Assembly: GCF_022846255.1 (NCBI RefSeq)
Contig: NZ_AP025682.1
Direction: 5' to 3' (one strand)
Source: Escherichia coli
Lineage (GTDB): Bacteria; Pseudomonadota; Gammaproteobacteria; Enterobacterales; Enterobacteriaceae
DNA: 64,000 nt
Part shown: positions 58,201 to 61,200 of the stretch, in pieces
Position numbering within the stretch: the first letter of the stretch is position 1
Layout of the letters: the number at the start of each line of letters is the position of its first letter
Position numbers: made by a program

Positions 58201-61200
58201 TGGTACCGCCCTGTGGCCATCGAAAATTTTGCCGTGGTCCGATCTTATGACCGGTAAGATTGGTGAAAATCCGGGTTACGATCCGCTGCAATTTATGCTC
58301 GACGAAGCCCACAAGCGTGGGATGAAAGTACACGCCTGGTTTAACCCCTATCGCGTATCGGTTAATACGAAGCCCGGTACTATCAGGGAACTGAATAGCA
58401 CCCTGTCTCAACAACCGGCCAGCGTCTATGTGCAACACCGCGACTGGATCAGAACGTCCGGCGATCGCTTTGTCCTCGACCCGGGCATCCCTGAGGTTCA
58501 GGACTGGATCACATCAATAGTTGCGGAAGTGGTTTCCCGCTATCCGGTAGATGGCGTGCAGTTTGATGACTATTTCTATACTGAATCACCAGGTTCACGG
58601 CTAAATGATAACGAAACGTACCGCAAATACGGCGGCGCATTTGCGTCAAAAGCAGACTGGCGGCGCAACAATACTCAGCAGTTAATTGCGAAGGTATCGC
58701 ACACCATTAAAAGCATTAAGCCGGAAGTCGAATTTGGCGTTAGCCCGGCAGGCGTGTGGCGTAACCGATCACACGATCCGCTCGGTTCCGATACCCGAGG
58801 CGCGGCAGCCTATGACGAATCCTACGCTGATACCCGTCGATGGGTGGAACAAGGGTTGCTGGATTACATTGCTCCCCAAATTTACTGGCCATTCTCACGG
58901 AGTGCCGCGCGTTATGACGTGTTGGCAAAATGGTGGGCGGATGTCGTTAAACCGACCAGGACCCGCCTGTATATCGGTATCGCCTTCTATAAAGTAGGAG
59001 AACCGTCAAAGATAGAGCCAGACTGGATGATTAACGGCGGCGTACCGGAACTGAAAAAGCAGCTCGATCTTAACGATGCTGTGCCGGAAATTAGCGGCAC
59101 AATCTTGTTCCGTGAGGACTATCTGAATAAACCGCAGACTCAACAAGCGGTCAGCTATCTGCAAAGTCGTTGGGGCAGTTAAACTCCCATTCTTACTTTG
59201 TAACAAGCCGGTGCTTTACCCACTGGCTTGTTACCCTCTTGAACTATCCCACTAGCAATCATGCTTAAATACGTCAAATTAACCACGCAATTAACCACAC
59301 TTAGTTAAACAGCCATAATTCCCCTAATAAAAATGTATAAATATGAAAAAACATACGATATTCGCTGTCACCGAAAAATAATTACGATGAGCTATACTCT
59401 TCTGAAGAACAGTAGCGTAGATTGAAACTGTCCTAAGTCGCTTATTTCTTTTCAGTATATCTTCATATTTCAGGAGAATATGGTGCAGTTAGTCGATCCC
59501 GCACGTTGTGTTTGGTTGATTTTGGCCTGCGGTTTAACCATAAAGGTCGACATTATTTTAAAGCCGCAAACGGCGAGGATATTGCCCTCTCACTTTCCAT
59601 CGGTGCCGCCATGTTTAATGGTCATCCTGACTATGAGCGCCTCATTCAAATAGCCGATGAAGCTCTGTATATCGCCAAAAGACGAGGTAGAAACCGTGTT
59701 GAACTCTGTAAAGCCAGTCTTTAGATGCGCCAGGATGCAGAGGTAATCATGAAGCTAACCGATGCGGATAATGCCGCCGATGGCATTTTTTTCCCCGCCC
59801 TTGAGCAAAATATGATGGGCGCGGTGTTAATTAACGAAAATGATGAAGTGATGTTTTTCAACCCCGCCGCAGAGAAGCTCTGGGGGTACAAACGTGAAGA
59901 AGTCATTGGCAATAACATTGATATGCTGATTCCGCGGGATTTGCGTCCTGCGCATCCTGAATACATTCGTCACAACCGTGAAGGTGGTAAAGCACGCGTC
60001 GAGGGGATGAGTCGGGAGCTGCAGCTGGAGAAAAAAGACGGCAGTAAAATCTGGACCCGTTTTGCGCTATCGAAAGTGAGCGCCGAGGGGAAAGTTTATT
60101 ACCTGGCGCTGGTACGGGATGCCAGCGTAGAAATGGCGCAAAAAGAACAGACCCGACAATTGATTATTGCCGTTGACCATCTCGACCGACCGGTGATTGT
60201 CCTCGATCCGGAACGCCATATTGTGCAGTGCAATCGCGCATTTACCGAAATGTTTGGTTACTGCATTAACGAAGCCAGCGGTATGCAGCCCGATACACTC
60301 CTGAACATTCCAGAATTCCCTGCTGATAACCGTATTCGTTTACAACAGTTGCTATGGAAAACCGCCCGCGATCAGGACGAATTTCTGCTGTTAACGCGCA
60401 CCGGTGAAAAAATCTGGATTAAAGCCTCTATCAGCCCGGTTTATGACGTGCTCGCGCATCTGCAGAACCTAGTAATGACATTCTCGGATATCACCGAAGA
60501 AAGGCAAATCCGCCAGCTTGAAGGCAATATTCTCGCCGCCATGTGCAGCAGCCCGCCATTTCATGAAATGGGGGAAATCATTTGTCGTAACATCGAATCT
60601 GTTCTCAACGAATCGCATGTTTCGCTGTTAGCGCTGCGCAACGGGATGCCGATACACTGGGCGTCATCTTCGCACGGTACAGAAGTTCAAAATGCGCAAA
60701 GCTGGTCAGCGACCATTCGTCAGCGTGATGGCGCACCGGCGGGGATCCTGCAAATTAAAACCTCGTCAGGAGCAGAAACCAGCGCCTTTATCGAACGCGT
60801 GGCAGATATCAGCCAGCATATGGCCGCGCTGGCGCTGGAACAGGAAAAAAGCCGTCAGCATATTGAACAACTCATCCAATTTGATCCGATGACCGGTCTG
60901 CCAAATCGCAATAACCTGCACAATTACCTCGATGACCTGGTCGACAAAGCCGTCTCTCCGGTGGTCTATCTCATCGGTGTTGACCATATTCAGGATGTGA
61001 TTGATAGCCTTGGCTATGCGTGGGCCGATCAGGCATTGCTGGAAGTGGTCAATCGCTTTCGTGAAAAACTCAAACCGGATCAGTATCTCTGTCGTATCGA
61101 AGGTACGCAGTTTGTCCTCGTGAGCCTGGAAAACGACGTCAGTAACATTACCCAAATCGCCGATGAGCTACGGAATGTGGTCAGCAAGCCGATAATGATT

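What the first reader, a model, noticed from the sequence alone, without database searches (positions are those of the whole stretch)
59183..59748. dosC reduced to a ~245 bp remnant while dosP is intact
In K-12 the O2-sensing cyclase DosC (~460 aa, as I recall) is co-transcribed with the phosphodiesterase DosP. Here only ~570 bp separates yddW from dosP. A good RBS and ATG sit at 59480, but the frame closes after ~57 codons. A second frame carries a short N-terminal-like stretch (DFGLRFNHKGRHYF) joined directly to the GGDEF C-terminus, which suggests internal deletion(s) of about 1.1 kb. The cell would keep DosP without its partner cyclase, which should bias this module toward c-di-GMP degradation.
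Basis: partly seen in the sequence, partly recalled or inferred. Interest (0 to 1): 0.55.

Follow-up and report, generated by a model that had tools for sequence, protein, structure and literature searches.

The report
Known B2-lineage dosC pseudogene remnant
The oxygen-sensing cyclase gene dosC is reduced here to a dead 211-base remnant by two old deletions while its partner dosP stays intact; the same allele sits in about a fifth of sequenced E. coli genomes and is already in the literature, so it is real but ordinary.

Summary
Between digH (yddW) and dosP the window has 566 bp where K-12 has about 1.77 kb.

Aligned to K-12, two deletions account for the difference:
- Deletion 1 is 686 bp, dosC nt -45 to +641. 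It removes the dosC ribosome-binding site, the start codon, the globin sensor and part of the middle domain.
- Deletion 2 is 531 bp and in frame, joining F229 to K407. It removes most of the GGDEF domain, including the GGDEF motif.
- What remains is 47 nt plus 164 nt of dosC.

The ATG at 59480 is not a dosC start. It is the start of the validated 13-codon small gene yddY, which deletion 1 fuses out of frame into a 57-codon ORF.

dosP is intact: 799 aa, 9 substitutions against K-12, dN/dS 0.04.

Each junction matches 1,043 to 1,048 of 5,426 complete E. coli genomes, including ST131, Nissle 1917, the CFT073 lineage and APEC. NCBI's pipeline annotates the remnant as a pseudogene. The remnant ORF is CFT073 c1919. 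ExPEC loss of yddV/dosC, and the idea that it lowers c-di-GMP, are published.

Two points are new but minor. This genome keeps the ddp operon that the five typical ExPEC-type genomes examined lack, and its dosP is a recombinant mosaic.

Verdict: already known, low interest.

The parts
57863..59182 (+). digH (yddW), intact, 439 aa; the upstream neighbour
   Evidence: ORF. K-12 and B2 annotations. dN/dS against K-12 is 0.027.
59200..59234 (+). 14-bp-stem hairpin just after the digH stop. Probably a digH 3' terminator or stabiliser. It has no U-run.
   Evidence: Fold energy -21.7 kcal/mol, z = -7.3 against shuffles. Conserved in K-12 with one stem change that turns a G-C pair into G-U.
59277..59300 (+). 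12-bp tandem duplication (AATTAACCACGC / AATTAACCACAC) where K-12 has a single copy
   Evidence: Alignment to K-12. Present in all 8 other deletion-bearing genomes aligned.
59392..59398 (+). CTATACT, a candidate -10 element of the retained yddY-dosCP promoter. This is an inference only.
   Evidence: Identical in K-12. It matches the sigma-S -10 core consensus as I recall it from memory. The generic sigma-70 scan was no better than shuffles. The region upstream of yddY drives PhoQP-dependent transcription in K-12 (PMC11429745).
59480..59653 (+). yddY'::'dosC out-of-frame fusion ORF, 57 codons. Codons 1-11 are yddY (59480-59512). The rest reads the dosC remnant in the wrong frame.
   Evidence: The K-12 sequence here is the 13-codon yddY, b4746. 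YddY was detected as a tagged protein (bioRxiv 10.1101/511675). The ORF is open in 8 of the 9 sequences; BEN2908 was not scored because my search string missed it after a Shine-Dalgarno substitution. The L7 variant is annotated as UTI89_C1704. No Pfam hit.
59513..59514 (+). Junction 1 of deletion 1. The deleted block is 686 bp, K-12 dosC nt -45 to +641. It took the yddY codon 12-stop, the dosC RBS, the ATG, the globin domain and the start of the middle domain.
   Evidence: blastn and base-by-base comparison. The 48-mer spanning the junction is found in 1,043 of 5,426 genomes.
59514..59560 (+). 47-nt island of dosC (nt 642-688, residues 215-229, middle domain)
   Evidence: 96% identical to K-12. 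Weak Pfam DosC_2nd match, below the cut-off. Two substitutions, both non-synonymous: A215V and W220R.
59560..59561 (+). Junction 2 of deletion 2. The deleted block is 531 bp (177 codons), in frame, joining F229 to K407. It removes GGDEF-domain residues including the GGDEF motif. Microhomology is 1 nt.
   Evidence: The 48-mer spanning the junction is found in 1,048 of 5,426 genomes.
59561..59724 (+). dosC 3' fragment (nt 1220-1383, residues 407-460 plus stop). This is only the last 47 of the 161 GGDEF profile positions.
   Evidence: Pfam GGDEF match to profile positions 115-161 only. PGAP annotates it as a pseudogene 'missing N-terminus'.
59749..62148 (+). dosP, intact, 799 aa. The ORF also extends back to the historical upstream ATG at 59725.
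   Evidence: 9 aa differences from K-12, dN/dS 0.043. Pfam finds PAS, PAS, GGDEF and EAL. H69 and M87 (H77 and M95 in the historical numbering) and EAL at 576 are present.
60390..60600 (+). Approximate recombination switch inside dosP. Upstream is the B2 haplotype. Downstream is closest to the non-B2 strain 2020CK-00188.
   Evidence: Mismatch profiles.
62405..62986 (+). ddpX, the first gene of the ddp operon. It is present here but absent from the five typical B2 genomes inspected downstream of dosP.
   Evidence: ORF. In those five B2 genomes dosP is followed directly by osmC. Three complete genomes combine the deletion with ddpX.

Best explanation
The interval 59183-59748 holds the dosC pseudogene allele characteristic of E. 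coli phylogroup B2 and ExPEC strains.

What the sequence shows. Two illegitimate deletions with little or no microhomology struck a K-12-like yddY-dosC-dosP operon. Deletion 1 (686 bp) removed the end of yddY, the dosC RBS and start codon, the haem-globin sensor and the first part of the middle domain. Deletion 2 (531 bp, in frame) removed most of the GGDEF domain, including the catalytic GGDEF motif. The 211 nt left over cannot encode a cyclase and is decaying. The promoter region, the yddY start, the dosP RBS and the whole of dosP were spared, and dosP remains under purifying selection.

What is inferred.
- Transcription still starts upstream of yddY.
- Ribosomes starting at yddY now read 57 codons and stop 96 nt before dosP.
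- dosP is translated from its own Shine-Dalgarno sequence.
- The cell therefore makes the O2-activated phosphodiesterase DosP without DosC. The DosC-DosP push-pull pair is lost, and the local c-di-GMP pool it controlled is pushed downwards.
For: Breakpoints. Both were mapped to the base against K-12.

Residual domains. Pfam finds only the last 47 of 161 GGDEF positions, plus a weak, sub-threshold match to 18 positions of the DosC middle domain.

Distribution and origin.
- Junction 1 occurs in 1,043 and junction 2 in 1,048 of 5,426 complete genomes.
- The dosC 5' region occurs in 4,353.
- 1,036 records match the window region at 99% identity or more; those listed in that band were all single-piece matches, and all listed intact-dosC genomes were at or below 97.9%.
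- Junctions are identical in ST131, Nissle 1917, clone D i2, BEN2908, A26, RM14723, L1PEag1, Z135-5 and Ecol_867.
- 2012C-4502 carries the same pseudogene annotation and matched the window in one piece.
- This pattern points to a single origin.

Decay of the remnant.
- 3 of its 4 substitutions against K-12 are non-synonymous, compared with 9 of 65 in dosP (Fisher p = 0.015).
- The three ST131-type genomes examined carry an extra 1-bp frameshift.

dosP is kept.
- It is a full-length ORF in every deletion genome where the whole gene was fetched.
- dN/dS is 0.04-0.10 against K-12 and between haplotypes.
- The haem ligands and the EAL motif are conserved.

Promoter region. It is conserved and was shown to be active upstream of yddY in K-12 (PMC11429745).

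Not an assembly error. An independent read-set assembly (DRR102846) is identical to the window over 7,252 bp.

Literature.
- ST131 lacks yddV, and the gene is truncated or deleted in many ExPEC (PMC5654935).
- DosC is frequently absent (PMC5635171).
- ST131 DosC is described as 'transformed into a novel short protein' (bioRxiv 10.1101/2022.05.07.487787).
Against: - Nothing here measures dosP transcription, DosP protein or c-di-GMP in a strain with this allele.
- The -10 element is only a consensus match. The generic promoter scan was no better than shuffles.
- Most of the low dosP dN/dS accumulated on branches that may predate the deletion. Within typical B2 the counts are small (2-6 non-synonymous, 5-11 synonymous; dN/dS 0.06-0.24).
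- Published mutant data do not fit a simple 'less c-di-GMP' reading. Deleting CFT073 c1918 lowered biofilm in M9-glycerol and an exogenous cyclase did not rescue it (PMC3484386). I infer c1918 to be dosP from its PAS domains and its number next to c1919, but the paper's table lists no EAL residues for c1918 and its text says only K-12 has dos-yddU.
- At least one ExPEC isolate, B-11870, also has a stop codon in dosP (PMC5635171).
- I could not search the rest of this genome for another dosC.
Confidence: 0.9

Rival explanations
1. The whole module is decaying. Loss of dosC made the entire dosCP module useless. dosP is either no longer expressed or no longer matters, and simply has not yet picked up lesions.
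For: - Some genomes have lost more. H30 matches only the digH part of the query.
- B-11870 has a stop codon in dosP.
- IS1 insertions in dosC in non-B2 genomes (H11, H31) suggest the module is dispensable in several backgrounds.
Against: - dosP is full length in all eight deletion-bearing genomes where the whole gene was fetched, spanning several divergent lineages, and in this window.
- dN/dS is 0.04-0.24, whereas the adjacent remnant shows 3 non-synonymous changes out of 4 plus a frameshift in the ST131-type genomes.
- The dosP RBS and the promoter region are retained.
Confidence: 0.1
2. Gene birth. The remnant is a new functional small gene. The candidates are the 57-aa yddY'::'dosC fusion, translated from the validated yddY start, and the 72-aa C-terminal GGDEF fragment (CFT073 c1919).
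For: - The yddY SD and ATG are intact, and YddY is made in K-12.
- The 57-codon ORF is open in 8 of the 9 sequences (BEN2908 not scored) and contains a hydrophobic 19-mer, Kyte-Doolittle mean 1.85.
- The ST131 preprint calls the product a 'novel short protein'.
- Both ORFs are annotated in some genomes.
Against: - The 57-aa sequence is an out-of-frame read with no family match.
- Its apparent conservation is what recent common ancestry would give anyway.
- All three polymorphisms in its yddY part are non-synonymous (59493, 59495, 59499), and BEN2908 has a weakened SD at 59476.
- The 72-aa frame starts at a TTG. I saw no obvious Shine-Dalgarno match upstream when reading, but I did not test this formally.
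- That frame is broken by a 1-bp deletion in the ST131-type genomes and is called a pseudogene by PGAP.
- The text I read of the CFT073 study reports no phenotype for the c1919 deletion. I did not read its Table 2.
Confidence: 0.07
3. Horizontal import. In this genome the deletion allele did not come by descent. It arrived by homologous recombination of a roughly 5-kb B2 tract (gadC-digH-remnant-5' dosP) into a non-B2 chromosome.
For: - The window from about 55.1 kb to 60.4 kb is 99-100% identical to B2 genomes. From about 60.6 kb on it is 2-4% from B2 and 99.3% identical to the non-B2 strain 2020CK-00188, which has an intact dosC.
- The best hit to window 22-46 kb among 5,426 genomes is only 98.1%.
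- The window carries lsr, yddA-yddB-pqqL and ddp. L1PEag1, the one B2 genome compared over those regions, lacks all three, and the other four typical B2 genomes lack ddp.
Against: - Other long stretches of the window are also B2-like: about 98.5-99.9% per kb over 1-15 kb, which K-12 largely lacks, and 99.0-99.7% over 35-40 kb. The backbone therefore looks B2-related, with the non-B2 segments being the imports or ancestral retentions.
- Three other complete genomes combine the deletion with ddpX.
Confidence: 0.15
4. Assembly or sequencing artefact. The short digH-dosP gap is a collapsed or misjoined region.
For: None found.
Against: - The same two junctions occur in more than 1,000 independently assembled complete genomes.
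- An independent Logan assembly of run DRR102846 is identical to the window over 7,252 bp.
Confidence: 0.01

Closest known systems
dosC (yddV/dgcO) pseudogene of B2/ExPEC E. coli: CFT073 c1919, 536 ECP_1486, and the PGAP pseudogene 'diguanylate cyclase domain-containing protein' in ST131, Nissle 1917 and APEC
   Same: - Both deletion junctions are identical and the digH-remnant-dosP order is the same.
- The exact 72-aa ORF of the window is in public databases under CFT073, on at least 1,000 contigs.
- The loss is reported in PMC5654935, PMC5635171, PMC3484386 and bioRxiv 10.1101/2022.05.07.487787.
   Different: - This genome keeps the ddp operon after dosP, and its dosP 3' half is a non-B2 haplotype.
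- It has P7 in the yddY part. K-12, Nissle 1917, BEN2908 and A26 have L7 there, and ST131 has P7 with A5 and N6.
- It lacks the ST131 1-bp frameshift.
K-12 yddY-dosC-dosP (dosCP) operon
   Same: - Same position between digH and ddpX.
- Same promoter region, yddY start and dosP RBS.
- The dosP product is 98.9% identical.
   Different: - 1,217 bp are missing.
- There is no DosC globin sensor and no GGDEF active site.
- yddY is extended from 13 to 57 codons.
UTI89_C1704 (hypothetical protein, 57 aa)
   Same: It is the same yddY'::'dosC fusion ORF, differing only at residue 7, where UTI89 has L and the window has P.
   Different: It is only an automatic annotation. No evidence of expression or function was found.
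Independent dosC inactivations in other E. coli (IS1 insertions, larger deletions)
   Same: The outcome is the same: loss of DosC. In the two IS1 cases seen, dosP appears to be retained (H11, H31).
   Different: The lesions and lineages differ. These cases are rare: about 12-17 genomes lack the dosC 5' region without carrying the B2 junctions (arithmetic).

Membership tests
DosC/DgcO globin-coupled diguanylate cyclase | N-terminal haem-globin sensor domain | tested here: not met
   dosC nt 1-641 are deleted. tblastn with K-12 DosC finds nothing upstream of residue 209 anywhere in the window.
DosC/DgcO globin-coupled diguanylate cyclase | Complete GGDEF domain with the GGDEF active-site motif | tested here: not met
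   Only Pfam GGDEF profile positions 115-161 of 161 remain. K-12 residues 230-406, which include GGDEF, are deleted.
DosC/DgcO globin-coupled diguanylate cyclase | Own ribosome-binding site and start codon giving a protein of about 460 aa | tested here: not met
   Deletion 1 covers nt -45 to +641. The longest in-frame ORF is 72 codons from a TTG.
DosC/DgcO globin-coupled diguanylate cyclase | Orthologous position, between digH/yddY and dosP | tested here: met
   Synteny with K-12 MG1655 and EPI300. So it is the dosC locus, but a pseudogene.
DosP/PdeO haem-PAS c-di-GMP phosphodiesterase | PAS-PAS-GGDEF(degenerate)-EAL architecture, full length | tested here: met
   Pfam finds EAL (E 3e-69), GGDEF and two PAS regions in a 799-aa ORF. 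The product is 98.9% identical to K-12 DosP.
DosP/PdeO haem-PAS c-di-GMP phosphodiesterase | Haem axial ligands His77 and Met95 (historical numbering) and the EAL motif | tested here: met
   H69 and M87 of the 799-aa form, and EAL at 576. The 8-residue numbering offset is explained in PMC11543664.
DosP/PdeO haem-PAS c-di-GMP phosphodiesterase | Expression and O2-stimulated phosphodiesterase activity | not testable with these tools
   This needs RNA or protein measurement and an enzyme assay in a strain with this allele.
YddY small protein (b4746) | Conserved SD and ATG at the K-12 position | tested here: met
   AGGAGAATATG is identical to K-12.
YddY small protein (b4746) | 13-codon ORF with its own stop | tested here: not met
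   Junction 1 lies in codon 12, and the ORF now runs 57 codons.
B2/ExPEC-type dosC deletion allele | Both junction sequences identical to those of ST131, ST73 and ST95 reference strains | tested here: met
   48-mers across each junction hit 1,043 and 1,048 genomes. Nine sequences aligned show no junction variation.
B2/ExPEC-type dosC deletion allele | Host genome belongs to phylogroup B2 | tested here: inconclusive
   The window is a mosaic. Long stretches are 99-100% B2-like, but lsr, yddAB-pqqL and ddp are present, and the best 24-kb hit is only 98.1%. A whole-genome phylogeny is needed.

The most novel reading that the evidence does not exclude
Deletion 1 turned the validated 13-codon yddY leader ORF into a 57-codon ORF (59480-59653) that is actually translated in strains with this allele. 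The product would either be a new small hydrophobic protein or act as a lengthened upstream ORF. In the second case it would change how much DosP is made and when, for example by bringing dosP under the low-Mg2+/PhoQP control reported for yddY.
Probability: 0.08. Interest if true: 0.35.

Novelty: already known. Interest (0 to 1): 0.15.

Why it matters
DosC and DosP form E. coli's oxygen-sensing c-di-GMP push-pull pair. In K-12 they are linked to curli, PNAG and PNPase-dependent RNA processing.

About a fifth of complete E. coli genomes, including ST131, the CFT073 lineage, Nissle 1917 and avian pathogenic strains, carry DosP without DosC. That matters for extrapolating K-12 c-di-GMP wiring to clinical strains. 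The fact itself and the 'less c-di-GMP, more motility, less curli' hypothesis are already published.

This analysis adds four things:
- base-exact anatomy of the lesion: two deletions, one of them in frame, with a 47-nt island between them;
- the recognition that the upstream 'start' is yddY;
- a frequency estimate from 5,426 complete genomes;
- the note that CFT073 c1919, and by inference c1918, treated in one study as strain-specific cyclases, are the dosC remnant and dosP.

Tried and rejected
- **Genomes with only one of the two deletions.** The junction counts are 1,043 and 1,048. The one oddly annotated hit (H110) was the usual double deletion plus a frameshift. No intermediate was found, but I could not intersect the hit lists, so a handful cannot be excluded.
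- **Microhomology at the junctions.** Junction 1 has none. An alternative TGATT-mediated junction does not reproduce the observed sequence. Junction 2 has 1 nt. This gives no mechanistic signature beyond illegitimate recombination. Whether one complex event or two separate events occurred is unresolved.
- **Import of the allele from a B2 donor.** This was suggested by the dosP mosaic and the 98.1% best hit. I downgraded it after a 64-kb comparison showed a largely B2-like backbone.
- **GTDB species-representative scan for junction 2.** There were 0 hits. This tells us only that the source genome is not a representative and that no representative carries the allele.
- **Rfam scan of 59000-59900.** Only chance-level hits appeared.
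- **Generic promoter and terminator scan.** It was no better than shuffles. The one terminator-like site lies inside dosP codons 8-13, and I did not check it against K-12.
- **Povolotsky & Hengge 2016.** The primary survey was not held in the library, so I cite it only through papers that quote it.
- **PMC10459773.** It does not mention dosC.
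Full report
**What is there.**

The window carries the E. coli segment gadB-gadC-digH(yddW)-[gap]-dosP-ddpX. The digH stop is at 59182 and the dosP ATG at 59749, leaving 566 bp. In K-12, the same interval holds yddY, a 13-codon small gene, and the 1,383-nt dosC.

blastn of window 58700-60300 against a K-12 locus gave three collinear pieces:

| Window | K-12 locus L001 | Content |
|---|---|---|
| 58700-59513 | 1501-2301 | digH 3' end, intergenic region, yddY codons 1-11 |
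| 59514-59560 | 2988-3034 | dosC nt 642-688 |
| 59560-60300 | 3565-4305 | dosC 3' end and dosP |

Base-by-base inspection fixes two deletions.

- Deletion 1 is 686 bp, dosC nt -45 to +641. It removes the last two codons and stop of yddY, the dosC ribosome-binding site and ATG, the globin domain and the first part of the middle domain.
- Deletion 2 is 531 bp (177 codons) and in frame. It joins F229 to K407 with 1 nt of microhomology.

The surviving dosC DNA is 47 + 164 = 211 nt. Translated, it reads V-DFGLRFNHKGRHYF|KAANGEDIALS...ELCKASL*. Pfam matches only GGDEF profile positions 115-161 of 161, plus a weak match to 18 positions of the DosC middle domain that falls below Pfam's cut-off. The haem-binding globin and the GGDEF active site are gone, so this cannot be a cyclase.

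The coordinates, the 57-codon ORF from 59480, the second-frame fusion and the intact dosP are all correct. Three points need correction.

1. DFGLRFNHKGRHYF is DosC residues 216-229, in the middle domain, not the N-terminus.
2. The 'good RBS and ATG' at 59480 are the start of yddY (b4746), annotated in MG1655 and detected as a tagged protein (bioRxiv 10.1101/511675). Its upstream region shows PhoQP-dependent transcription at low Mg2+ (PMC11429745). Junction 1 falls in yddY codon 12, so the ORF now reads out of frame through the remnant for 57 codons.
3. The deleted DNA is 1,217 bp and the remnant is 211 nt.

**Is it a real and general allele?**

- A 48-mer across junction 1 matches 1,043 of 5,426 complete E. 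coli genomes. A 48-mer across junction 2 matches 1,048.
- The dosC 5' 641 nt is present in 4,353 genomes, out of 5,413 that have the locus. These counts are what mutual exclusivity predicts, with roughly 12-17 genomes carrying other lesions. I could not intersect the lists directly.
- 1,036 records match the window region at 99% identity or more. In the sampled listing, every hit in that band was a single piece, and every intact-dosC genome was at or below 97.9%.
- Carriers include O25b:H4-ST131, Nissle 1917, clone D i2 (CFT073 lineage), APEC BEN2908 and SF-088. From my own knowledge these are phylogroup B2 strains.
- Eight such genomes aligned with the window show identical junctions.
- PGAP annotates the remnant as a pseudogene 'missing N-terminus' in all of them.
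- An independent assembly of read set DRR102846 is identical to the window over 7,252 bp, so this is not an assembly artefact.

**Signs of decay versus retention.**

- Against K-12 the remnant has four substitutions, three of them non-synonymous: A215V, W220R and W457C.
- dosP has 9 non-synonymous changes out of 65 differences. The contrast gives Fisher p = 0.015.
- The three ST131-type genomes examined have an additional 1-bp deletion in the remnant, at window position 59675.
- dosP is a full 799-aa ORF here and in every deletion genome where the whole gene was fetched.
- dosP dN/dS is 0.043 against K-12 and 0.06-0.24 among typical B2 pairs, although those counts are small.
- The PAS-PAS-GGDEF-EAL architecture, the haem ligands (H69 and M87, which are H77 and M95 in the historical numbering) and the EAL motif are all conserved.
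- The region from the digH stop to yddY is conserved with K-12, apart from a 12-bp tandem duplication and a 1-bp indel. A strong hairpin follows digH.
- A CTATACT at 59392-59398 is a candidate -10 element. This is inference only; the generic promoter scan was uninformative.

**How it most likely works.**

Shown: DosC is abolished, and the dosP coding sequence, its Shine-Dalgarno sequence, the yddY start and the upstream region are preserved.

Inferred: transcription still starts upstream of yddY. Ribosomes translate the 57-codon fusion ORF and stop 96 nt before dosP. DosP is made alone.

[quoted passage not shown] DosC also promotes curli and PNAG (work cited in PMC5635171). Loss of DosC should therefore tilt this module towards degradation. 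PMC5654935 attributes this same hypothesis for ExPEC to Povolotsky & Hengge 2016. I could not test it.

**Known or new?** It is already known.

- DosC is frequently absent in commensal and UPEC isolates while DosP is present (PMC5635171).
- ST131 'transformed YddV/DosC into a novel short protein' (bioRxiv 10.1101/2022.05.07.487787).
- The window's exact 72-aa remnant ORF is in public databases as a CFT073 'putative conserved protein' on at least 1,000 contigs. A 70-aa member of the same cluster is ECP_1486 of strain 536. The 57-aa fusion ORF (L7 variant) is UTI89_C1704.
- In Spurbeck et al. 2012 (PMC3484386), c1919 is listed as a CFT073-specific cyclase with the motif string KHYADIDEALY. The tail of that string, DEALY, matches the remnant (IADEALY). 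This supports, but does not prove, that c1919 is the remnant. Its neighbour c1918, which has PAS domains, is by inference dosP. That paper states that only K-12 has dos/yddV.

**Side findings.**

The window genome is unusual.

- Its dosP is a mosaic. The first 640 nt or so are the B2 haplotype. From about 60,390-60,600 onwards it is 2-4% from B2 and closest (99.3%) to the non-B2 strain 2020CK-00188, which has an intact dosC.
- In the five typical B2 genomes inspected, dosP is followed directly by osmC. The window keeps ddpX and ddpA.
- The window also keeps lsr plus an autotransporter (about 19.8-30.9 kb) and yddA-yddB-pqqL (47.07-53.36 kb). L1PEag1, the one B2 genome compared over those regions, lacks both.
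- Long stretches are nevertheless 99-100% B2-like, so the backbone appears B2-related.
- Three complete genomes also combine the deletion with ddpX.
- Whether this lineage is basal B2 or a recombinant cannot be settled without the whole genome.

**Verdict.**

Interest is low. The only reading with some novelty is that the lengthened yddY ORF has acquired a function or modulates dosP. I rate that unlikely.

Noticed in passing
window 59480-59653: The validated K-12 small gene yddY (13 codons) is fused out of frame to the dosC remnant, giving a 57-codon ORF. The ORF is open in 8 of the 9 deletion-bearing sequences checked (BEN2908 not scored) and is annotated as UTI89_C1704. All three polymorphisms in its yddY part are non-synonymous.
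   Followed up: partly
window ~60390-60600 (inside dosP): There is a recombination switch here. The 5' 640 nt or so of dosP is the B2 haplotype. The 3' part, together with ddpX and ddpA, is 2-4% from B2 and 99.3% identical to the non-B2 strain 2020CK-00188, which has an intact dosC.
   Followed up: partly
window 62150-64000 (ddpX 62405-62986, ddpA start): The ddp operon follows dosP here. In the five typical dosC-deletion (B2) genomes inspected downstream, dosP is followed directly by osmC. Only three complete genomes (2012C-4502, JNE23-011, JNE112863) were seen combining the deletion with ddpX.
   Followed up: partly
window ~19800-30900 and 47067-53365: The lsr operon plus an ECSE_1600-type autotransporter, and yddA-yddB-pqqL, are present in the window but absent from the otherwise 99%-identical B2 genome L1PEag1. 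The best hit to window 22-46 kb among 5,426 complete genomes is only 98.1%, so the source is a rarely sequenced lineage.
   Followed up: partly
window 59277-59300: A 12-bp tandem duplication (AATTAACCACGC/AATTAACCACAC) lies in the digH-yddY intergenic region where K-12 has one copy. All deletion-bearing genomes aligned share it. It lies upstream of the candidate promoter, and its effect is unknown.
   Followed up: no
L005/L009/L004 (ST131 isolate 46, Ecol_867, Z135-5), equivalent to window 59675: ST131-type genomes carry an extra 1-bp deletion in the dosC remnant, which PGAP notes as 'frameshifted'. This fits continuing decay.
   Followed up: yes
hits H11 and H31, non-B2 genomes: IS1 insertions interrupt an otherwise intact dosC in some non-B2 genomes. 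H50 has only a truncated 'globin family protein'. These are independent dosC inactivations.
   Followed up: no
window 59200-59234: A very stable 14-bp-stem hairpin follows the digH stop directly (-21.7 kcal/mol, z = -7.3). It has no U-run and is conserved in K-12 with one G-C to G-U change.
   Followed up: partly
window ~54000-55000 (gadB): This 1-kb bin is unusually divergent from both the B2 genome (92.4%) and K-12 (93.3%), while the flanks are 98-99%. Gene conversion between gadA and gadB, or an imported allele, is possible.
   Followed up: no
literature: PMC3484386 (CFT073 c1918/c1919): That study counts c1918 and c1919 as CFT073-specific diguanylate cyclases absent from K-12. The evidence here points to c1919 being the dosC remnant: the exact 72-aa ORF is recorded under CFT073, and the listed motif ends in DEALY. 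By adjacency and PAS content, c1918 is by inference the dosP orthologue.
   Followed up: partly
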